From Amoebophrya sp. A120 (Eukaryota; Protista; Dinoflagellata), in NCBI GenBank assembly GCA_905178155.1, contig CAJINV010000011.1, positions 2,101,503-2,165,502 of the forward strand: a stretch of 64,000 nucleotides of DNA, in the 5' to 3' direction. The notes under the pieces were generated by a model. It was not told the origin of the DNA, did no database searches, and saw only the letters and a list, made by a program, of their open reading frames with translations. This document shows, piece by piece, positions 1 through 62,669 of this stretch (positions within the stretch are counted from its first letter, which is position 1; each line of letters starts with the position of its first letter). The translations under genes were made by a program, and so were the position numbers.

Positions 1-1940
1 GGACTCGGTCCCCGCGTCATGACCTAGGGGCCAGCTTTGGGCGCTTCCCGGAAACTAACCGCACGGCCCAGGGGCATCAAAAGCCCTAGGTCAGCGCGGG
101 GGCCCGGTCCCCGCGTCATGACCTAGGGGCCAGCTATGGGCTCTTCCCGGAAACTAGCCGCACGGCCCACGGTCAATGCAAAAGCCCTAGGTCAGCGCGA
201 GGACTCGGTCCCCGCGTCATGACCTAGGGGCCAGCTTTGGGCGCTTCCCGGAAACTAACCGCACGGCCCAGGGGCATCAAAAGCCCTAGGTCAGCGCGGG
301 GGCCCGGTCCCCGCGTCATGACCTAGGGGCCAGCTATGGGCTCTTCCCGGAAACTAGCCGCACGGCCCACGGTCAATGCAAAAGCCCTAGGTCAGCGCGA
401 GGACTCGGTCCCCGCGTCATGACCTAGGGGCCAGCTTTGGGCGCTTCCCGGAAACTAACCGCACGGCCCAGGGGCATCAAAAGCCCTAGGTCAGCGCGGG
501 GGCCCGGTCCCCGCGTCATGACCTAGGGGCCAGCTATGGGCTCTTCCCGGAAACTAGCCGCACGGCCCACGGTCAATGCAAAAGCCCTAGGTCAGCGCGG
601 GGACTCGGTCCCCGCGTCATGACCTAGGGGCCAGCTTTGGGCGCTTCCCGGAAACTAACAGCACGGCCGAGGCGCGAAAGCCCTAGGTCAGCGCGGGGAC
701 TCGGTCCCCACGTCATGACCTAGGGGCAAGCTCTTGGCGCTCCCCGGGAACTAACCGCGCGGCCCAGGGACAACAGCCCTAGGGCAGCGCGGGGACTCGG
801 TCCCCGCGTCATGACCTAGGGGCCAGCTTTGGGCGCTTCCCGCAAACTAACCGCACGGCCCAGGGGCAAAGGCCCTAGGTCAGCGCGGGGACTCGGCCCC
901 CGCGTCATGACCTAGGGGCCAGCTTGGGCGCGCCCCGGGAACTAACCGCACGGCCCAGGGACAAAAGCCCTAGGTGAGCGCGGGGACTCGGTCCCCGCGC
1001 CATAACCTAGGGGCCAGCTTTGGGCGCTTCCCGGAAACTAACCGCATGGCCAAGGCGCAAAAGCCCTAGGTCAGCGCGGGGACTCGGTTCCCGCGTCATG
1101 ACCTAGGGGCCAGCTTTGGGCGCTTCCCGGAAACTAACCGCACGGCCCAGGGGCAAAAGCCCTAGGGCAGCGCGGGGACTCGGTCCCCGCGTCATGACCT
1201 AGGGGCCAGCTATGGTTGGGCTCTTCCCGGAAACTAGCCGCACGGCCCACGGGCATTGCATGCAATGCAAAAGCCCTAGGTCAGCGCGGGGACTCGGTCC
1301 CCGCGTCATGACCTAGGGGCCAGCTGTGGGCTCTTCCCGGAAACTAGCCGCACGGCCCACGGGCATGCAATGCAAAAGCCCTAGGTCAGCGCGGGGACTC
1401 GGTCCCCGCGTCATGACCTAGGGGCCAGCTTTGGGCGCTTCGCTTCCCGGTCGGAAACTAACCGCACGGCCCAGGGGCAATGCAAAAGCCCTAGGTCAGC
1501 GCGGGGGCCCGGTCCCCGCGTCATGACCTAGGGGCCAGCTTCGGGCGCTTCCCGGATGGAAACTAACCGCACGGCCCAAGGGCAATGCAAAAGCCCTAGG
1601 TCAGCGCGGGGACTCGGTCCCCGCGTCATGATCTAGGGGCCAGCTTTGGGCGCTCCCCGGAAACTATCTAACTGCACGGCCGAGGCGCAAAAGCCCTAGG
1701 TCAGCGCGGGGGCTCGGTCCCCGCGTCATGACCTAGGGGCCAGCTTTGGGCGCTTCCCGGAAACTAACCGCGCGGCCGAGGCGCAAAAGCCCTTCCTAGG
1801 TCAGCGCGGGGACTCGGTCCCCGCACCATGACCTAGGGGCCAGTTTTGGGCGCTTCCCGGAAACTAACCGCACGGCCCAGGGGCAAAGGCCCTAGGTCAG
1901 CGCGGGGACTCGGTCCCCGCGTCATGACCTAGGGGCCAGC
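1..1940. repeat. GC-rich tandem satellite, ~95-105 bp unit, ~20 copies, internal palindrome
   Basis: Unit GGACTCGGTCCCCGCGTCATGACCTAGGGGCCAGC...AAAGCCCTAGGTCAGCGCGG. A 200-bp dimer period is visible at 1, 201, 401, 601. Each unit contains the inverted repeat CCCTAGGTCA-GCGCGGGGAC-tcg-GTCCCCGCG-tca-TGACCTAGGG. Confidence 0.97.
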
Positions 1941-3868: not shown

Positions 3869-6002
3869 TCAGAGTGGCTTGACTATCTGGCGAAAGGTGA
3901 GATTTATCCGCTCCTCCGCGACCTTTGCGCGCTTCGGGAGGCTGTGCTGCCACAAGTGCTGGATGGGTCCGTACATCAGGAGTAAGCTCCCGGACTCTAG
4001 GGTAACCGCCGCTTTTTTCCCGTGGTCGGCAATTTTGCGGAACGAGCTATCCCGGCGTGGCAAAATGTTCTCACCCGATGCCCAATCCGATTGAAATAGC
4101 TACAAACGAAGAAGTTATAATTTGGTGCGTTGTGCATACGAAACTTGATCTTCCCGCCGTCGTGTGCTAAGCGGAGACTCGCAAGTAGGGCCGCACTTCT
4201 CTTTGCACATTTATGTCGTATTAATATAGCGTTGTAATATTGGCCAGCACGTACTGACATCAAATTATAAAAGCAATGCTCACACAGCAGCACCGGGTGA
4301 GAACGTTACTTTGCCGCAGGATAGTGAAACTCGCGCGGAGCGCCGAAGGACACGGATGCGATGGTGGGGTTTTTGCCGTACACCGCCTCGTCGTCGCTGT
4401 GCCAGCCCTGATATTGCAAGGAAGAATACCCCCTCCGCATATCAAAACGGAAATCTGTGGTGCGGATTTGTGGTCACAAATCAGCTTTGTCATGCTAGAA
4501 GGGAAAAGATGCGGGCTGTAGTGCTGGGTCGCGTGGGAAAGCCTTGCATCGTCAGCATGAGAGGAGGCAGCTGGAAGTGGGAAACTGCATGACAAATTGC
4601 CTGCAAATGAGGCCACAGCTGCGGCTCTTGGCCTTCTAGCAATACAAGTCGATTTGTGTACTCAAATACAGCATCAGAAATTTCGTGTTCGATATGGGGA
4701 GGGGGGATTTTTCCTTTTGATACCTGACTGTCCGCTCCCGATCGGTACCGGTTTAACAGGACGCTGTTGAACGAGGCCGTCTCCGTATGAGAGTGCACAA
4801 CTCCCCCTCTCCCTCATTTGTAATGCAAAACCCCAAATGCCGTTGGTGTATTGTGGCAGTGTTTGCATGACGAATTCCGGAAGCCAAAGCACGCACGACA
4901 TTCGGTGCGTAAACTTGTCATGCACAGGCTCCAATTGTGTTGGTGTTTGTGATGCTGTTCATGCCATACAAATGAGGGGGAGGGGGAGTTGCGCACTCTC
5001 ATACTCAGGTACTAGCGGTGCTGCTGCTGGCTGCCCCCCAGGGGACTGCTTCACGTTCACATCGACTTTAATACTATTCTGCGCTGCAGAAGATATCAAA
5101 ACAGAACTCTTACCGCCCATAGTAGAAATACTGCCAGAACAACCAGAGCTCGTTCTTTGCGCACCAGATGAACTACAACTTCTTTCCCCCTCCATCCTCT
5201 CCAGTACGGTCTTTCTCAGCTCCTCCAGGATTGGCGGGAACAGCCGCGCGTGCAGCAGTCGCCCAGAGTATTTGTAGCTGTGGTCCCCAAAGTAGCAGGT
5301 CAATCGGGGCTCGGGAATCTCCTTCCCAAACAGCTTCACGCTCCCCTGCGCCCACGGCATCTGCTGCTGCAGCTTGCGCAAAAGCTCGTCTGGGTTCTCG
5401 AAGGCGCGCGGGAGGTACAGCACCGCTATTGTGAGCAAAAACGTCCCCGCCCCAGTGTCAAGATGGGGAATCTGCTAGACAAATCCACAATGACAAGTTT
5501 GGCCTCGGAGTGTGGTCCTGTTTGGTTAGTGCAGCAGCATCACAGATCTAGTATATCATGCTGAGACGAGCATCACAAATTTCAAAACACCGCTAGAAAA
5601 CGCTTCTCATGGGGCTGCTCCGCATGACAAACATTTTGTGCATGCAGATTTGCATCACAACTATGGAGTGGGAACGTTTCTACATAGGATATCCGCGCTC
5701 CCTTCCCCATCCAGGAGGAACACCTCGTTTGGAGGAATCGCCACGACTGCGCGAACAGAATCCTTCTGGCCGATCTTGCCCCGATCTTGCTTTCCTGCTC
5801 TCTTTTGCACCCCGCCCGGATTGACTGCTTGTGCCGCGGACGAGCTTGCTTTTGATGTCCTTGTTGGGAACGAGCCGCCCACCTGGAGGTTCTTTGTCGC
5901 GGCAGACTTAGGCTCATCTCCCGGAGCCTTCTTGCGCACGGTCGTACTCGGGCCCGGGAGGAGGGTTCCACTCGCGACTTTCCCGCCCCGTTTTGAGGTC
6001 AT
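3869..6002 (-). CDS. alkB: AlkB-family 2OG-Fe(II) dioxygenase (ALKBH2/3-like), 5 exons split by 4 introners
   Basis: Approximate exons 6002-5692, 5426-5004, 4785-4723, 4411-4324, 4047-3869. Spliced motifs: EPRLTCYFGD, FNSVLLNRYRSGADSQGWHSDDE (HxD), IASVSFGAPR, GSLLLM, WQHSLPK, RINLTFR. Confidence 0.93.
4048..4323. mobile_element. Old introner (F2-like), TSD eroded
   Basis: TATCCCGGCGTGGCAAAATGTTCTCACCCG ... CGGGTGAGAACGTTACTTTGCCGCAGGATA. Flanks CGAGC/GTGAA no longer match, but removing element+5 nt restores REFxFRK. Confidence 0.8.
4412..4722. mobile_element. Introner, family F3
   Basis: TATTGCAAGGAAGAATACCCCCTCC ... GGAGGGGGGATTTTTCCTTTTGATA; perfect TSD CCTGA. Confidence 0.95.
4786..5003. 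mobile_element. Introner, family F4
   Basis: TATGAGAGTGCACAACTCCCCCT ... AGGGGGAGTTGCGCACTCTCATA; TSD CTCCG/CTCAG. Confidence 0.93.
5427..5691. mobile_element. Introner, family F2
   Basis: TATTGTGAGCAAAAACGTCCCC ... GGGAACGTTTCTACATAGGATA; TSD ACCGC/TCCGC. Confidence 0.92.
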
Positions 6003-28120: not shown

Positions 28121-28297
28121 GAAGGTTACAGAAAAGTTGCGGGTCCATTTTTTTCGGGAGTGCTTCTGTTCGTGAATAATTCTTGCGGGTTCTCCAATAT
28201 GTAGGCCGTAGTGCGTGGCTTCCGCAGCCGTGCGCTGTCGTCAAAGAGTTGGCTCTAAGTGCTTCGTACCGCTTAACGGCGTTGCGCGCTCAAGTCA

Positions 28298-28722
28298 TTC
28301 GCACGACTGAACCGCGGCGGACCTCCTCAGTCGTTCGCACGACTTAAGCAAGGCTTTCGCACGACTTAAGCAAGGCTTTCGCACGACGTAAGGCTTTCGC
28401 ACGACTTAAGCCTTTCGCACGACTTAAGCCTTTCGCACGACTTAAGCCTTTCGCACGACTTAAGTCTTTCGCACGACTATAAGCCTTTCGCACGACTTAA
28501 AGCTTTCGCACGAGTTAAGGCTTTCGCACGACTTAAGGCTTTCGCACGACTTAAGGCTTTCGCACGACTTAAGGCTTTCGCACGACTTAAGCCTTTCGCA
28601 CGACTTAAGGCTTTCGCACGACTTAAGTTCGTAGGGTTTCTTTCGCACGACTTAAGTGCGTAGGATTAGAAGTCTTTCGCACTACTTAACTGTGTAGGGC
28701 ATGAGTCTTTCGCACGACTCAA
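28298..28722. repeat. 18-bp minisatellite (CTTTCGCACGACTTAAG[G/C])n, ~20 copies
   Basis: Direct tandem repeats between the hydrolase and DUS1 genes, degenerating at both edges. Confidence 0.95.
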
Positions 28723-29272
28723 CTGCGTGCGGCTTCTTGCGCATGAGAAAAGATGCGCAGGACTGAAGCCTTTCGCCCGACTGTACGCAAGGCCGTGATC
28801 TGTACGTCCCGCGTGGATCTTGGTTGCTATCGGTTTCGTTCTACTGAATCGCGCGAAAATTTTAAACTGATCGCTCCGTTTGGAAAGATTAAAAAGAATC
28901 AGAAGAATCTCGTGCGATCTAGTACTGCTGCGGCGAGAATATGCTCCGCGGGGTGGTCATGGTCAATAGAGAAAAGCTCATCAGGTGGATCCCCGAGATC
29001 ATTCCAAGAACCACACGACAGAGATCAAGGAGGGGAACGAAAAATAATGATGAGCAGGAAGCACTGATGTTCATGTTGCTGATCTACAACGCTTTGTGTA
29101 GATCAAAGTTTCAACGCAAAACTGAATTTCCAGGCCGCCAGTGTCAGAAGAATTATTGGAAATAGCGGCGAAGCATAAAGTTTTTGTATCAGTAGTTTCT
29201 CCTTATGAGTCGGCCTGTTCTTCTGAAGTTGAGTTCCCACCTAATAACATCTCATCACTAAGCTGCAAAATC

Positions 29273-46940: not shown

Positions 46941-48308
46941 ATGATGAGCAGCACAAGTTCAACGTCCGCCCTTGCCCGCCGCCGCATCGGCGAGATTTTC
47001 CAACAAAGCGCATTGGCCCCCGCCACGTCCTCTTCTTCTTCCTCCTCAACAACTAAACCCGCCGCAGTTTTCGGCGTGGAGTTCGTTCCCGCGGACGACA
47101 AAACCGTCTATCAACTGTAAAAATGTTTGGGTCTGGAAGATTCTGACAGTTGTCATGCACGTTTTGCATGAGCCCTGATGTCTGTGATGCATGCCCTAGC
47201 ATCACAGATTTTTTGAGAGCTTCTCGATGCCTATTCCGCATGATAAATGCCCTCTTCGCGTAGCAAAAATTACATTCCCTTTGGTACTCATGCAAGACAG
47301 ATTTTTTTGGAATCCAAATGCAGCATCTCAAATTGCATTCTTCCAGACCCAGACATTTTTACATTTGATACCGTCGTGGCGCAGCGGATTTCCCGAACGC
47401 AGAAATGGCAGCCCGCCTGGGTCGGGGTCACGTGGCACGTGACGCAGGCGGACCAGAGCAGAAAAACGCTGCAGTTGGTGCAGAATTTGACGCAAAACAC
47501 GGAGTTGAACTGCATGATGCACCTGACCTGCCGCGACATGACCAAAACCCAAATCCGCGAGGTGCTCGACCAGTGCAAAGCGCTGGGCGTGCGAAACATT
47601 CTGGCCTTGCGGGGCGACGGCATGACGGCGGGAACCCCGAAGGGGGATCATGGGGGTGCCACTACCAGTACCTCCTCTTCGCCGGTCACGACCGAGGCAG
47701 CGGTGGAGGGAACAGGTTGTGAAGTAGACGATAAAAATGTAGTGAACAAAAACCACTCCGACCAGCAGTTTCAATACGCGATCGAATTGATTCAGTTCAT
47801 CCGCACGGAATACGGCGATTTTTTCGGCATTGCGTGTGCGGGGTACCCGGAGATGCACCCAGATTCCAAGCAGGATTTGGAAAAGGACATTTTCTTTTTG
47901 AAGCAAAAAGTAGCCGCCGGCGCGGACGTGATCATTACCCAGTTTTTCTACGACGTGGGGAAATTTTTCGAGTTCAAAATACAGTGTCGGAAGAGTGGGA
48001 TCGAGTGTCCGATAATACCGGGCATCATGCCGATTACGAGTTACGCCCGGCTGGGAAAGATCAACCGGTGGAACCCCACGGCGGCGGTTCCGGCGGCCTT
48101 GCGAGAGGAACTGGAGAAGCGGAAGGAGGATGGTGCTGCGTTGCGCGCGTTTGGCATCGAGGAGTGTGTGAGAAGTTGTAGATTGCTGTTGGAAGAGGAG
48201 TATGGGGCTGCAGAGGGGGAAAAGTTCTTGCCAGGGTTGTACTTCTTCACGTTGAATCAAGATGATGTGATACATGAAATTTTGAAAGCTTTGAAGCTGG
48301 TGGAATGA
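46941..48308 (+). CDS. MTHFR: Methylenetetrahydrofolate reductase, catalytic domain only, 2 exons
   Basis: MMHLTCR, GVRNILALRGD, GIACAGYPEMHP, LKQKVAAGADVIITQFFYD, PIIPGIMPI, GLYFFTLN. Confidence 0.93.
47109..47370. mobile_element. Introner, family F1
   Basis: TATCAACTGTAAAAATGTTTGGGTCTGGAAGA ... TCTTCCAGACCCAGACATTTTTACATTTGATA; perfect TSD CCGTC. Confidence 0.96.
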
Positions 48309-51909: not shown

Positions 51910-52086
51910 ATGGCCTCTACCGCGTCGTCAATCCATTTTTACGTCGACCTGCTTCCGCTTTACGTCGTCTGGCTGGTGTACCTGGCCCTGGGGCTGGGCT
52001 ACCTGCTCACCACGCGGGTCTACGGGCACACCGTGTTGGAGCACCGGCTGACCGCGTTTCTGGAGCGGTGGGTCCCGGTCGGGTAG
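51910..52086 (+). CDS. Putative 58-aa single-pass membrane microprotein (or terminal exon)
   Basis: Strong G/C third-position bias and hydrophobic LLPLYVVWLVYLALGLGYLL. Confidence 0.5.
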   Translation: MASTASSIHFYVDLLPLYVVWLVYLALGLGYLLTTRVYGHTVLEHRLTAFLERWVPVG

Positions 52087-52132
52087 GATTGTACTTCACA
52101 CCTTTGTTTCTCTACTTTTGTCTTTCGGGAGT

Positions 52133-55100
52133 ATGAAAATGGTGCCTCGTCTACTACTACTCACGAAGCCGGTTTATCCGGTAGTTCTCGTCGCGGCCGC
52201 CCTATTCCTAGACCAGATTGGCTACGTTGCCGCGGGGCCGAACCCGATCCGCAAGGTTGTCACGTTACTCGAGGACCTCGCGAAGGAGATTGAAGCCGAG
52301 TCGGCGGAACAGGCCAAACTGCACGAGAAGATGCAGTGCGCGTGCAAAAAAGCCGTGCCGGATATGGAGCAGGAAATCGAAGACGCGAAAAACTCCATCT
52401 CCGCGCTCCAAGCCTCCATCCAGGAGAAAAGCGGCGCCGCGGAGCAGCTCGGCGCCGAGGTGGCGGCCTTGGACAAGGATATTGCCGAGAACAAACAGTC
52501 GCTCGCCGAGGCACAGTCCGTGCGGAAGAAGGAGGGGGATGAATACCAGGCGGAGTCGGCGGTGACAAGAACCAACATCGCCGCCATGGACCAGGCGATC
52601 CCGGCCTTGCGGAAGGGCATGGGGGGCGAGGACCCCGACGCGTTTCTGCAGGTGAAGGGCAAGACGGAGGAGAAGAAGATGAAGAAGAATTTGCTACTCC
52701 TGCTCCAGAACGGCGCGTTTTCCTCGGAAGCAGATCGGGAGCTGGTGTACGAGCACGCCACGAGCAACAGCAAAACGGAGTCTTCGGGCGAGATCGTCGG
52801 GATTCTGGAGCAGATGCGGGAGTCCATGCGAGACAACCTTATCGCCGCGACGAAGCAGGAGGAGCAGGCGCGGGCCACTTTTTTGAAGCTGGAGCAGAGC
52901 AAGAAGGGCGAAATTTCCGCGGCGGAAAAGGAGCGAACGGAGAAGGCAAACCGGCAGGCCAAGCAGGACTCGGAAAAAGCGACGGCGGAAGAAAACTTGT
53001 CCGACACGGAGGCGGCTTTGACGGACACAACGCAGGAATTGGACGACAAAAAACGCGAGTGCGCGGACGAGGAAAAGTTGTATGACGAGATATCAAAAGG
53101 AAAAATCCCCCCTCCACCCCATATAAAAACGGAGATTTGTGTAGCATGATTTGTGATCACAAATCTTCACGTTGTCATGCTAGAACGGAAGAGAAGATGC
53201 GGACTGTAGTGTGCTGGCTCGTGTTCTTGGAAGGCCTTGTAGTGTCTTTAGCATGACAGAAAGCACCTGGAACCGGGAAACAGCATCACAGACTGGCCGC
53301 AAGTGAGGCCGCAGCTGCCTCTCTTTGCCTTTTAGCAATACAAGTCGATTTGTGTTGTACTCAAATACTTTCGTTTCGATATGGGGAGGGGGGATGTTTC
53401 CTCGCAATACGAGAACGAAAAGGCGAGGCAGGCCGAGGTCATCGGCGTGCAGGAAGCCATCAAGATTTTGAACAGCGACGACGCGCTGAAGACCTTCGAC
53501 AAAACCATGCAGAAAGGCGAACCGGAACAACCAGCGTCCTTTTTGCAGCTGAGTTATGAATTGCAAAAATGTCTGGGTCTGGAAGATTGCAACTTGTCAT
53601 GGTAAATCTGAAGCATGCAAAAATCTGTGTTGCATGAGTGCCAAAAGCTGTCCACTTTTGACCAAGTTGGAACGGAGTTTCTCATGCAGAATAGGCATGG
53701 CAGAGGCCTCGCAGAGTCTGTCATGCTACGTCCCGCATTCCAGACCTCATGGGTCATGGAAAATCTGCATGACAAGTCTACACTCTTCCAGACCCAGACA
53801 TTTTTACATTTGATACGAGTTTGACCTCGCACGGAAAATTCGACGCGCTCTTGGGGAAATGCGGAGAGTACTAAATATTAGATACTGGCGCTGCTGGTCT
53901 TATTCAGTCACCTACTTGAAGAGCCGTGTTTGTGCAATGCGCAATAAACTCGCGTTTTTTATGCTATACAAATATACAACCTGACCAAAACACAACAGCA
54001 TGATTACGCTTTTGAAGCAGGAACAGAAAACGGAGGACGAAGAAAACGACAAGTGCAAAGCGGATCTCGCCCAGTCCGCACTGGATGTCCAGGAAGCTGG
54101 GAACACAGAGACCAACGCCGCGCAGGCGGTGGAGCAGAAGAAGGCAGAAGTGGCGGCCGTAAAGGACGAAGTAGCGGCGGTCAAGTCTGTGCTCGCGGAA
54201 ATTGAGGCGACGGTGAGTGAAGAGTCGGAAAACCGGAAGAAGGAAAACGCGGCGTTTATCGCGGAGCAGAGTGAGCTCTCCCAGGCGGTGAAGTTGCTGC
54301 AGAAGGCGGGGAAGAAACTGAAAGAGACCTACGCGGCAAAAGAGTTGCTGTTGCAAGAGGAAGGTGGAGCCTCTACTTCTTCCGCTATTACTGACGCGGA
54401 TAGCAGTACAACGACCACTTCTGGTGCCAATGATAATTCTGGCGCGGTTGTTGACTCTACTCAAGAGGAATCTACTTCAACCTCCGCTAATGAAGACGGC
54501 GAGAATTATCAAGAAGAAGTCTCCCCCGCCACTACCGCTGAGTCGGTCGACCAGGTTTTTGACTCCTTCCTCAGCTTCACGCAAGTAAAACAGGAGCAGC
54601 CAGCGGGGCAGGACAACCGCGCCCGGAAAGGCGGGAACATCGTGATCATCCTTACCAACATGGCCGCAGACGTGAAGAAGGACATTGCGCTGTTGGAGCA
54701 GCAGGAAAACCAGGAGCAGAGCGACTACGAAAAGTTGATGAAGGACTTAGCGGCCACGAAAAAGCAGCGGAAAGACGAGTTGACGACGAAAAAGTCCACG
54801 TTTGCGAAATTGTCCCAGGAGCAAGAGGAGCTGGAGGAGGATTTGAGCCTCGCGCAGGACGAGAACGCGGGGCAGCAGAGCGAGGACAAGATATGCATTG
54901 CAAATATGTCTGGGTCTGGAAGGGTGCAACTTGTGATGCATTTTTTGGATTCTAAAAAAATCTGTATTGCATGACCCCCCGCAATATGAGTTCAGTTTAT
55001 GCTATGCGGCGAGTGCATTTCTCATGCGGAATAGGCATCAGGAAGCTCTCTAAAAATCTGTTATGCTACCGGTCATGCATGCATAACGGGCGTCATGAGT

Positions 55101-55920
55101 CATGCAAATTATGCATGACAAGCCGGGCAATCTTCCACACCCGGACTACATATTTGCAGTTGATACAAGGCACTGCACGAGAACTGCGACTACCTGCTGA
55201 AGAACTATTCCGCGAGGAAGGAGGAACGCGCCGGGGCGGTGGACGGACTATATCCTGAGTAAAAACGTACCCACACCAGAGTTGTAATGCAAATCTGCAT
55301 GCTGAAAATGTTTCTCATGCGGAGCCCCATGAGAAGCATTTTCTAGTCGTGTTTTGCAATTTGTCATGCTCCAATCAGCATGGTATGCTAGATCTGTGAT
55401 GCTGCTGAGCTAGCTCAAACAGCACTACACTACGAGTCCAAATTTGTCATGCAAAACAGCCAAAACTTGTGGATTTGTCTAGCCGATTCCCCATCTTGAC
55501 TATGGTGTGGGTACGTTTTTACTCAGGATAGACTACAGCAGGCCATCGCGATTCTGCGGGGCATGAAAGACCCCAGTCTGTTGCAGAAGGGGGGAAGCTA
55601 TGGATTGTAAATATGTCTGGGTCTGGAAACTTGTAATGCCAAAAGTGAATGGTAGACGCACTGCAATACGCAGCTATGCATGACAAATTTTTTGGCTGCC
55701 ATGTCTTACGTGTTCCGCATGGCAAACTGCGTTTTTCCATGACAGGTAAGAGGGCCTTTTCGCGCCTATGCAACACAGATTCTCGAGTCATGCCAGACAA
55801 GCATGACACACTTGCATTCTTCCAGACCCAGACATTTTTGCATTTGATAGAAGCGGCGTTGTGCGGGTGGAAAAACTGATGTCCCGGGCGGGGGCGGCCC
55901 TGCAACACCGGGGGAATTGA
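52133..55920 (+). CDS. Secreted coiled-coil protein, 7 exons (5 introners + 1 GT-AG intron 53868-53998)
   Basis: N-terminal hydrophobic signal, long E/K/A heptads, repeated (F/L)LQ linkers and spaced Cys. Every junction restores the frame, up to TGA 55918-55920. Confidence 0.88.
53091..53409. mobile_element. Introner, family F3
   Basis: TATCAAAAGGAAAAATCCCCCCTCC ... GGAGGGGGATGTTTCCTCGCAATA; perfect TSD CGAGA. Confidence 0.95.
53555..53815. mobile_element. Introner, family F1
   Basis: TATGAATTGCAAAAATGTCTGGGTCTGGAAGA ... TCTTCCAGACCCAGACATTTTTACATTTGATA; TSD TGAGT/CGAGT. Confidence 0.95.
54892..55165. mobile_element. Introner, family F1
   Basis: TATGCATTGCAAATATGTCTGGGTCTGGAAG ... ACATATTTGCAGTTGATA; TSD CAAGA/CAAGG. 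Confidence 0.94.
55251..55530. mobile_element. Introner, family F2 (young)
   Basis: Perfect 28-bp TIR TATCCTGAGTAAAAACGTACCCACACCA and perfect TSD GACTA. Confidence 0.97.
55599..55849. mobile_element. Introner, family F1
   Basis: Perfect TSD GAAGC. The homologous site is empty in the duplicate at ~57815-57825. Confidence 0.96.
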
Positions 55921-57432
55921 GTTGATACAGATTGAAGGTTTCGTTTTCGTTTGCGTTGGCGCAGCCACTTCAAGTGGATCACGAAGAGCGCTGCGCTTGT
56001 ATGATTTTTGGCCCGCAGCAACAGCATTGGTTGGCGCTTTATTTTTTCCGGACAGTTTAGAGAAGCTGAAGTTCAAGTGTATGAGTTGCGGTAGCCCTAG
56101 CGCTATTTCTCACTGGCAGAAGTAAAGTGAAGATTCTAGCCTGCCGTCGCGAGACTAGCCGCGAAGGTGCTTCGATTTTTTGAGTGAATCTGGTGTTCCA
56201 AATTTGAGTGCGACTGCTGAGATTGTTGAGAACGCAGAATACATCGCGATTCTGCGGGGCAAGCGCCAGCAGGAATACATTGCAGAATACATTGTCTGAA
56301 CGCAGAATACATTGCGAGAGCAACCTCCAGCAGGCCATCGCGATTCTGCGGGGCATGAAAGAGCCCAGTCTGTTGCAGAAACGTGCGCCGGGCGCTCCTG
56401 CCGCCAGCCAGGTACCTAGGTTAACGCATTTAGGTCATCACATTCTAGGTTACGCAGTCAGCATGCGGGCGCGCAACCTCGTGAGGACCGAGATGGGGGG
56501 ACTGACCACCATCTGTGGCCCCATCTTTGTACAAAAGGCCCCGACAACAATCGGGGCCTGTCCGTGACCAAGCCCAAGCGGTGGTCAGCGAGAGCGAGCG
56601 GGGAGGCGGCCACCCTCCCGCGGCCGCCATGCGCGCGCCCGCCAAAGCCACGTACCGTAAGGTGAAACCGTCGGCGCCGATCGCTATGTACAGGATCCGC
56701 CCTGAGCGACCGGAGCGCGGGTCAAGCCGACTCACAACCAGGACGAAAGTCTACAGAGGGACACCTCTGTGCGCCCGCACCATACCGCCCCGCACCTCTG
56801 TGCGACGGTCACAGCCCGAAACCCCCGGCTTCGGCGGGGGGCTAGTAGGGATTTAGGATGGAAGGCTGCGAAGTGCGTCTAGTGCATGAATCTGAGAACA
56901 CTAATCCGTGACAGATACAAGGATGGCCACACAGAGTGACACACAATGCGCAAGCACTATACACGAACGACACACACCAGCCGACCGTGTGCCACCTCTG
57001 TGGCACGGCTAGCTAGGGACTGCGTAGCCACCTGTTCGCACAGTTTACAAGCACGGCGATAGAGATCTAAACTGATGCAGCGACACCATACTTGCTTGCC
57101 TTCAAAATCAGGCTAGCTGCAGCGAACCTATACACTAGATGGAATGCGAATGATGTCTCACCTGTTGCAACACCCATCGAATGCACATGCTCTACTGATG
57201 CTTTTGGTCTTATTAATTTCCAAATGAGTATTTTGGTTTTGCTTTGGACCTCCGTTGGCTCTATTTGCAAAAAACGGAATGATGTTGCAAGCTATTTGCC
57301 TCCCTGCCTGCACCTGCTCGAGTGAATGACTGTTGATGGTTCTGACTTTAGACTTGTCTGTCTTACTTGTGTTTTCGCTCTCATTTGGAATGCTATCAGT
57401 GCCCTCTCGTGTGCTTATAGACTTTCTGGCCT

Positions 57433-58223
57433 CTACACCAGGCCATCGCGATTCTGCGGGGCATGAAAGACCCCAGTCTGTTTATCAAAAGGAAAAATCC
57501 CCCCTCCCCATATCAAAGCGGGATACTTCTGAAAATTTGTGATGCTGATTTGAGACCTCAAATCGTCTCTGTATTGCAAGAAGGCCAAGAGACGAAGCTG
57601 CGGCCTGAATTGCAGGGAATCTGTCATGCTGTTTCCCACTTCCTGTTGCCTCCTGTCATCCTGGAGCTGCAAGGCTTTCCCACGCTAGGCAGCACTACAG
57701 TCCGCATCTTTTGCCTTCTAGCATCACAAAGCTGATTTGTGACCACAAATCTGCATCACAGATTTCCGTTTTGATATGGGGAGGGGGCATTTTTCACTGT
57801 AATACTGTTGCAGAAGGGGGGCAGCGGCGCTGCGCGGGTGGAAAAACTGATGTCCCGGGCGGGGGCGGCCCTGCAACATCGGGGGAATTGAGGTGATAAA
57901 GATTGAAGGTCAAGGTTTTAATATCGTTTTCGTTTGCAGCGTTGGCGCAGCCACAAGGGGATCACGAAAAGCGCTGCGCTTGTATGATTTCTTGTCCGCA
58001 GCGATGGTCGTTGGTGTGTTATTTTTTCCGGACAGTATACCAGAAGTTGAAGTTCAAGTCTATGAGTTGCGATAGCCGTAGCGCTATTTCTCAATGGCAA
58101 ATAAAGTGAAGATTCTAACCTGCCGTCGCGACACTAGCCACGAAGGTGCTTCGAATTTTTGAGTGAATCTGGTGTTCCAAATTTGAGTGCGACTACTGAG
58201 ATTGTTGAGAACGCAGAATACAT
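57433..58223 (+). pseudogene. Duplicate of the 3' end and 3' flank of the coiled-coil gene (55533-56244)
   Basis: Colinear similarity from CAGGCCATCGCGATTCTGCGGGGCATGAAAGACCCCAGTCTG through GAGAACGCAGAATACAT. No upstream exons are attached. Confidence 0.9.
57483..57804. mobile_element. Introner, family F3, in the duplicated exon
   Basis: Perfect TSD CTGTT. Reverse-complement relative of 4412-4722. The homologous site CAGTCTGTTGCAG is empty at ~55574-55586. Confidence 0.96.
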
Positions 58224-58701
58224 TCGGTTTGTTGCAGAAGCGAAATTCTACCGCCGTCGGTCTTGCATTTTCTTTCCTCAAATTTTAATTTTTGGAGTTG
58301 ATGTCGTGCAGGCTCACATAAATCACAGTTCGCTGTTGAGATGATGTGGTAATTTGCATTGCAAGAACGCAGTCAGCTTTTCAACGACAACAACCATCTT
58401 TACGGCAAAAAACTTTTCAACAGGTGCGATATCCTCATTCTCATTTATCATATAAGTACAGTACAGTAGACCCAACTCACGCATTCTTTGTGCAGTCAGA
58501 GTCAATCTTCATTTCATTTTTTTCCTCATCTTTCTCGTCATAACGCATTTGCCAAATCATGAAAACACCCAACCGCAGTTGTTTGGCTCCACCTAGTGAG
58601 AGGTCTACCTTTCGCAGAACCTAGTAGATAGCACCCATAGGTGGAAATAGAACCTGATATAAGCAGGCCAGAAAGTCTCGCCCCGTACAAGTAGTAGTAC
58701 T

Positions 58702-62669
<3,968 letters not shown>

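What the first reader, a model, noticed from the sequence alone, without database searches (positions are those of the whole stretch)
55533..58223. Reciprocal filled and empty sites in a local duplication
Seen: the gene copy has an F1 element at 55599-55849 (TSD GAAGC) and an empty CAGTCTGTTGCAG site. The duplicate (57433-58223) has an F3 element at 57483-57804 (TSD CTGTT) and reads straight through GGGGGGCAGCGGCG where the F1 element sits in the gene. A third fragment (~56328-56379) is also empty at CTGTT. Each empty site has a single 5-mer. Inference: two independent insertions only ~16 bp apart occurred after the copies diverged. This supports the 5-bp TSD, recent mobility and possibly a hotspot.
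Basis: seen in the sequence. Interest (0 to 1): 0.85.

Follow-up and report, generated by a model that had tools for sequence, protein, structure and literature searches.

The report
Introner insertions into a duplicated gene end
The 3' end of a gene in the marine parasite Amoebophrya was duplicated locally, and each copy carries a different small transposon-like intron (an already described 'introner') that the other lacks, which likely records two separate insertions with a 5-base target duplication; it is a clear worked example of a known process, not a new system.

Summary
The window matches Amoebophrya sp. A120: the host protein is 99% identical to an A120 entry. F1 and F3 are the published A120 introners, with TAT…ATA inverted repeats and 5-bp direct repeats (PMC7789003).

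Removing each element plus one 5-mer reproduces the annotated 748-aa protein. It also fits contig lengths in a probable RNA run exactly.

The duplicate is not a haplotype. Both copies have their own contigs at full single-copy depth, 39 and 43 against 43–47 in the flanks. It likely arose at the DNA level, with a templated filler at the junction.

F3 gain after duplication is well supported, since two other copies are empty. F1 gain is likely, but loss is not excluded.

Corrections: the duplicate's empty F1 site differs from the TSD by one base. 'Recent' means only younger than about 7% divergence. The 16-bp distance has P≈0.07 by chance, so it shows no hotspot. Sites do cluster 53–85 bp apart across the window.

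The parts
52133..55920 (+). Host gene, 748-aa coiled-coil-like protein of no Pfam family; five introners and one GT-AG intron (53868-53998)
   Evidence: in-silico removal reproduces the annotated A120 protein; A25 orthologue 64% identical in alignment; no Pfam hit
55251..55530 (.). Introner 'F2' (280 bp, TIR 29/30, TSD GACTA); its right end lies 3-9 bp from the left breakpoint of the duplicated unit
55533..56244 (+). Copy A of the duplicated unit: last 43 codons, stop at 55918-55920, 3' flank; empty at the F3 site (55578-55582)
   Evidence: own DNA-run contig 55878-56206 at depth 39.1, 0 differences
55599..55849 (.). Introner F1, 251 bp, TSD GAAGC (55594-55598 and 55850-55854); inferred spliced out with one TSD
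   Evidence: probable-RNA contig laid from exactly 55850 with 55 unlaid letters; unspliced reading would stop after 3 further codons
56245..56324 (+). 80-bp junction filler built from short pieces of both ends of the unit (20-, 9-, 11- and 16-nt exact matches)
56325..56380 (+). Fragment C: 56-bp copy of the unit's start, empty at the F3 site, ends before the F1 site
   Evidence: 2 differences to A, 3 to B
56381..57432 (.). 1052-bp spacer of unknown origin, apparently low-copy repeat; no second copy in the window
   Evidence: (summed depth 88-135 in its bins against about 45-55 in unique flanks)
57433..58223 (+). Copy B: duplicate without upstream exons; frame open to the same stop; empty at the F1 site (one mismatch to the TSD)
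   Evidence: own DNA-run contig 57849-58185 at depth 43.4; contig 58165-59200 bridges its end into unique DNA
57483..57804 (.). Introner F3, 322 bp, TSD CTGTT (57478-57482 and 57805-57809)
   Evidence: 82-84% identical to 4412-4722

Best explanation
The gene's 3' end is present in two full copies and one fragment, likely made by a DNA-level tandem duplication, and two known TAT…ATA introners likely inserted afterwards, one into each full copy, each with a 5-bp target duplication. Shown: the three copies, the reciprocal sites, equal single-copy depth, and a uniform 5-bp flank repeat. Inferred: (1) the duplication came from repair or replication with repeated template switching, since the filler is a patchwork of both ends of the unit; (2) the elements are non-autonomous TIR DNA transposons moved by an unidentified transposase or integrase that makes a 5-bp staggered cut; (3) in the gene, F1 is removed from the RNA together with one TSD copy, which restores the pre-insertion reading frame still visible in copy B; (4) F3 sits in a promoterless 3' fragment that probably makes no protein. 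The 16-bp distance is most likely coincidence on top of a general local clustering of introners.
For: Alignment of copies. TSD statistics and shuffles. 21 of 25 high-confidence elements carry the published A120 motif TAT+7+AAA on at least one end (PMC7789003 passages). Removing five elements plus 5 bp each and one GT-AG intron gives the annotated protein P0001; TSD mismatches place the cut inside the TSD if all elements are cut alike. In probable-RNA run X3, contig 9 has a 193-nt unlaid stretch, exactly what removal of two elements plus 10 bp and the GT-AG intron predicts. Its 119-nt tail ends at 55568, and contig 13 ends at 57468; each is the A/B-distinguishing base plus 30, as expected for 31-mers. 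Contig 11 has 55 unlaid letters, matching 55539-55593. DNA-like run X1: A-specific depth 39.1, B-specific 43.4, flanks 43.1, 47.3 and 44.3. Related elements lie in both orientations in + strand genes (54892 vs 47109 and 60171, 72-75%), as expected for DNA insertion.
Against: No listed contig bridges A to filler, filler to C or C to spacer; only 8 of 27,966 laid X1 records were shown. The place of contig 11's 55 letters assumes record coordinates run in the record's own orientation. X1 has no library type on record and X3 is only guessed to be RNA. X1 may be the sample the assembly came from. F1 polarity has no outgroup. PMC7789003 found no transposase in A120 and argued against general transposase-mediated movement. 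The start of B appears in the probable-RNA run at depth 9, so B is not strictly silent.
Confidence: 0.8

Rival explanations
1. F1 was already in the gene before the duplication and copy B lost it, by precise excision or by conversion from spliced cDNA; only F3 is a new insertion.
For: Splicing removes the element plus one TSD, so loss through cDNA leaves the same empty site. C does not reach the F1 site. F1 is internally only 53-58% like its nearest relatives in the window. B starts almost exactly at an exon start.
Against: The unit extends 197 bp beyond the laid end of the RNA contig, with no poly(A) at B's end. The filler points to a DNA repair event. Both TSD copies in A share an A where B has C, which fits a substitution in A before insertion but also a later one in B.
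Confidence: 0.12
2. B is a mis-assembled second haplotype, so the two sites are allelic presence/absence polymorphisms.
For: A to C to spacer linkage is not bridged by a listed contig.
Against: Both copies have full, not half, depth in one run. B joins unique downstream DNA in X1, and joins the spacer in X3, a run of another study code. A three-part structure with filler is not what a haplotype bubble gives. The published A120 assembly used Nanopore reads to cut chimeric joins (PMC7789003 passages).
Confidence: 0.04
3. The site is a true sequence or chromatin hotspot that attracted two insertions 16 bp apart.
For: Introner sites cluster in the window: 7 of 24 neighbour gaps are 53-85 bp. The expected number is 1.0 if the whole element-free window is open (0 of 20,000 simulations reached 7), 2.0 if half is open (P=0.002) and 3.0 if a third is open (P=0.016).
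Against: The chance of 16 bp or less is 0.07 in the 448-bp unit and 0.23 within the 132-bp coding part. The two TSDs share no motif, and TSD composition over 25 sites is mixed. The genome has about 29,850 repeated introns (PMC7789003), so such pairs are expected. Gene-to-gene differences in element density could explain the clustering.
Confidence: 0.15

Closest known systems
Amoebophrya A120 introner elements (Farhat et al. 2021, PMC7789003; read: passages, section 16, supplement legend passages)
   Same: Same strain label as the host protein's best hit. Non-canonical introns with terminal inverted repeats starting TAT+7+AAA, mean non-canonical intron length about 240 nt, flanking direct repeats. 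The Fig. S19 legend shows a 5-bp example.
   Different: That paper reports direct repeats of 3-5 nt overlapping boundaries and argues against transposase mobilisation in A120. Here a single 5-bp length fits 24 of 30 elements, and paralogous empty sites show the 5-mer was single before insertion. The figures themselves could not be seen.
A120 TIR-DNA introner families (Gozashti et al. 2025, PMC12130899; read: passages and 22 of 58 A120 rows of supplement file 8)
   Same: Classified as TIR DNA transposons of unknown superfamily. fam160 and fam183 (about 320 bp) and fam19 are listed with a 5-bp TSD.
   Different: I could not assign F1 or F3 to a numbered family. Automated TSD calls in the rows seen range from 2 to 5.
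Introners of Micromonas and Fritillaria (review PMC11282704; read: passages)
   Same: MITE-like TIR elements with TSDs that become introns.
   Different: Micromonas uses a 3-bp TSD and canonical GT/GC-AG ends; the A120 elements have no fixed splice dinucleotides.
Templated-insertion junctions of polymerase-theta end joining or microhomology-mediated template switching (recalled, no call)
   Same: Junction filler made of short copies of both breakpoint flanks, with a 3-nt microhomology at the first jump.
   Different: It also holds a 1052-bp unrelated spacer; the repair pathway was not tested in this organism.

Membership tests
Amoebophrya A120 introner elements | Inverted repeats at both ends, starting TAT + 7 nt + AAA | tested here: met
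   F1, F2 and F3 meet it at both ends or one end; 21 of 25 high-confidence elements meet it
Amoebophrya A120 introner elements | Short direct repeat at the exon-intron boundaries | tested here: met
   5-bp repeats
Amoebophrya A120 introner elements | Repeated in the genome | tested here: met
   Relatives within the window; summed depth over the elements is thousands of times that of the flanks in X1 (not a copy number)
Amoebophrya A120 introner elements | Spliced from the mRNA (F1 and the four upstream elements) | tested here: met
   Indirect: annotated protein reproduced and exact contig-length arithmetic in a probable RNA run; no joint row was displayed
Amoebophrya A120 introner elements | Spliced from RNA (F3 in copy B) | tested here: inconclusive
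   The probable-RNA contig ends at 57468, before F3; no X3 depth at 58025-58265
Non-autonomous TIR DNA transposon (MITE) | TIRs, fixed-length TSD, no coding capacity, single target copy at the empty site | tested here: met
   empty F3 site exact in A and C; empty F1 site 4 of 5 in B
Non-autonomous TIR DNA transposon (MITE) | Cognate autonomous element or transposase in the genome | not testable with these tools
   No whole genome is held for this window; PMC7789003 reports none found in A120
Processed (retro) copy, for duplicate B | Ends at the transcript end with poly(A); lacks untranscribed DNA | tested here: not met
   The unit runs to 56244 while the RNA contig is laid to 56047; no A-tail at 58223
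Allelic haplotype duplication (assembly artefact) | Each copy at half depth | tested here: not met
   39.1 and 43.4 against 43.1-47.3

The most novel reading that the evidence does not exclude
The duplication itself was triggered by an introner transposase cutting at the right end of F2: the breakpoint lies 3-9 bp from that end, and the break was repaired with templated filler. New introners also prefer to land 50-85 bp from existing ones. The locus would then be a direct footprint of DNA-level cutting by the still unidentified A120 enzyme, and of self-reinforcing intron clustering.
Probability: 0.2. Interest if true: 0.55.

Novelty: new member of a known kind. Interest (0 to 1): 0.3.

Why it matters
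How Amoebophrya introners move is open: the original paper found no transposase in A120 and described variable 3-5-nt repeats. Paralogous empty sites show directly that the 5-mer was single before insertion, so it is a true target-site duplication. They also show that an element can enter a gene fragment that probably makes no protein. Both points favour DNA transposition. This is one locus, and the 5-bp repeat and the TIR-DNA classification are already in print, so it confirms more than it discovers. The same test done genome-wide would date insertions and measure site preference.

Tried and rejected
- No whole genome is held, so the spacer's other copies, the nearest F1/F3 relatives and a transposase could not be sought.
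- Scan of metagenome contigs with the host protein: 438 pattern matches, none confirmed. No wild alleles could be genotyped.
- Spacer: no Pfam hit for 6 ORFs across the spacer region; one chance-level Rfam hit at E=0.44; its hairpin motif had 0 matches in metagenome contigs. A Helitron-like 3' end (recalled motif) is therefore only a lead.
- No RNA holder was on record. The raw-read RNA run X11 covered only element sequence, so it was uninformative. The estuary run X9 gave only short low-depth pieces.
- A window-wide six-frame test of frame restoration was too noisy to tell +5 from +4 or +6 and was not used.
- The cut enumeration had a start-offset error and was redone.
- Selection on B: coding 5/132 vs non-coding 26/316 differences, Fisher P=0.10, with 3 of 5 coding changes non-synonymous. 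No evidence that B is maintained.
- Earlier scan notes: nothing returned.
- Four paper searches listed no report of this locus or of reciprocal empty sites in Amoebophrya. I saw listings only, apart from the three papers cited. Roy et al. 2023 (Curr Biol) was seen only as a reference. Supplementary figures and 36 of 58 A120 rows of the Gozashti table were not seen.

Full report
Observation. F1 (55599-55849) is flanked by GAAGC twice and F3 (57483-57804) by CTGTT twice. With each element and one 5-mer removed, copy A (55533-56244) and copy B (57433-58223) align over their whole length with 31 mismatches in 448 columns (6.9%) and 24 gap columns; the coding part differs at 5/132 and the non-coding part at 26/316. 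Fragment C (56325-56380) differs from A at 2 and from B at 3 of 56 bases. A and C are empty at the F3 site with an exact single 5-mer. B is empty at the F1 site but reads GCAGC, one base off the TSD. C stops before the F1 site.

The 5-bp repeat is general. I called 30 TAT..ATA elements in the window by TIR score alone. Eighteen have a perfect 5-bp flank repeat, six have 4 of 5, and six have 3 or fewer. Only n=5 gives high flank identity (83% against 25-40%), and five shuffles gave 0-3 calls.

What the elements are. The large exon 53985-54890 found two proteins among 7,996 scored candidates: Amoebophrya sp. A120 (99%) and A25 (54%). Farhat et al. 2021 (PMC7789003; passages, section 16 and supplement legends read) describe A120 introner elements: non-canonical introns with inverted repeats beginning TAT + 7 nt + AAA and 3-5-nt direct repeats, about 29,850 repeated introns, with a 5-bp example in the Fig. 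S19 legend. Twenty-one of 25 high-confidence elements here carry that motif (the set is the 24 with at least 4 of 5 TSD matches plus 5427-5691 added). Gozashti et al. 2025 (PMC12130899; passages and 22 of 58 A120 table rows) class most of the rows I saw as TIR DNA elements of unknown superfamily and list 5-bp TSDs for three families.

They are introns. Removing the five elements in the gene, each with 5 bp, plus the GT-AG intron 53868-53998, reproduces the annotated 748-aa protein. Two imperfect TSDs constrain the cut: the left copy's first base is kept at 53555 and the right copy's fifth base at 54892. If all elements are cut alike, the cut lies inside the TSD. This rests on the annotation. 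In run X3 (RNA by the tool's guess), contig 9 lies on 52000-53084 and 53999-54885 with 193 letters between, exactly the model's value. Its 119-letter tail would end at 55568. Contig 13 (56777-57468) ends at 57468. Both equal the A/B-distinguishing base plus 30, where 31-mer contigs must break if A and B merge there (word length inferred from the tool text). Contig 11 is laid from exactly 55850 and has 55 unlaid letters, the length of 55539-55593. These are indirect but exact fits; no joint row for X3 was displayed. Copy B, read without F3, keeps the same frame to the same stop, so it preserves the pre-F1 state.

Is the duplicate real? In run X1 (type not on record; its contigs run unspliced through intergenic DNA), A has its own contig at depth 39.1 and B its own at 43.4, both without differences, against 43.1, 47.3 and 44.3 for unique flanks. 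Alleles would show half depth. B's end is bridged into downstream DNA in X1 (58165-59200), and the spacer-B junction is bridged in X3, a run of another study code. The A-filler-C-spacer joins are covered (bin depth 48.5 at 56097-56337) but not bridged by any of the 8 X1 pieces shown. X1 may be the assembly's own sample, so this tests the assembly, not the population.

How the duplication likely arose. The 80-bp filler is a patchwork of exact 9- to 20-nt pieces from both ends of the unit, and the first jump uses a 3-nt microhomology. That is the pattern of templated-insertion repair or repeated template switching (recalled knowledge). C and the start of B flank a 1052-bp spacer as a 56-bp direct repeat; the spacer has about two to three times flank depth and no identified homologue. 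The unit extends 197 bp beyond the laid end of the RNA contig and has no A-tail, which argues against a retrocopy.

Order of events. F3 is absent from two of three copies, so gain in B is well supported. F1 has only one empty witness. Gain in A is simplest, but loss from B would look the same because splicing removes one TSD; I give loss about 0.12. Both events are bounded only by the 7-8% divergence. TSD pairs in the window differ at 7 of 125 bases, so the age is unremarkable and 'recent' is not shown.

Hotspot. Two uniform insertions in a 448-bp unit fall within 16 bp with P=0.07, so the distance alone shows nothing. Across the window, 7 of 24 neighbour gaps are 53-85 bp, above a uniform null (P=0.002 if half the DNA is open, 0.016 if a third). 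Gene-level differences in density were not modelled, and six weaker candidates were left out.

Mechanism. Shown: fixed 5-bp TSD, TIRs that pair in a predicted hairpin, related elements in both orientations in + strand genes, reciprocal empty sites. Inferred: non-autonomous DNA transposition by an unidentified enzyme with a 5-bp stagger, and orientation-independent removal from RNA guided by the paired ends. Against this, Farhat et al. found no transposase in A120.

Verdict. A real and tidy example of known A120 introners inserting into a real local duplication. The elements, the 5-bp repeat and the TIR-DNA classification are published. Four searches listed no paper on this locus or on paralogous empty sites in Amoebophrya. 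The boldest reading left open is that a cut at F2's right end caused the duplication; the breakpoint is 3-9 bp away, a post hoc observation. Interest 0.3.

Noticed in passing
window 4412-60416: Introner sites cluster: 7 of 24 neighbour gaps are 53-85 bp and none is shorter, more than a uniform null gives.
   Followed up: partly
window 55530-55539: The left breakpoint of the duplicated unit lies 3-9 bp from the right end of introner F2, within or next to its TSD.
   Followed up: partly
window 55576-55589 and 58227-58240: A 13/14-nt near-repeat lies just past the end of copy B; fragment C stops at the end of the same word, which may mark a template switch.
   Followed up: no
window 56822-56846: GC-rich hairpin followed by CTAG in the spacer, reminiscent of a Helitron 3' end (recalled); no match in metagenome contigs.
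   Followed up: partly
window 56777-57468: The spacer and the start of B appear as one contig at depth 9 in the probable RNA run. Single-base differences at 56946 (X1) and 57081 (X3) suggest other spacer copies or strain differences.
   Followed up: no
window 53550-53820 and 54887-55170: Mismatched TSD pairs constrain the splice cut to inside the TSD according to the annotated protein; RNA reads over such sites could map the cut genome-wide.
   Followed up: partly
window 1-1940 and 28289-28750: Tandem arrays: about 96-101-bp units at the window start and an 18-bp unit array at 28.3-28.7 kb.
   Followed up: no
window 47109-47370 and 60171-60416: F1-type elements in reverse orientation at an MTHFR gene and inside an AAA-ATPase gene; removal plus 5 bp joins the latter in frame.
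   Followed up: partly
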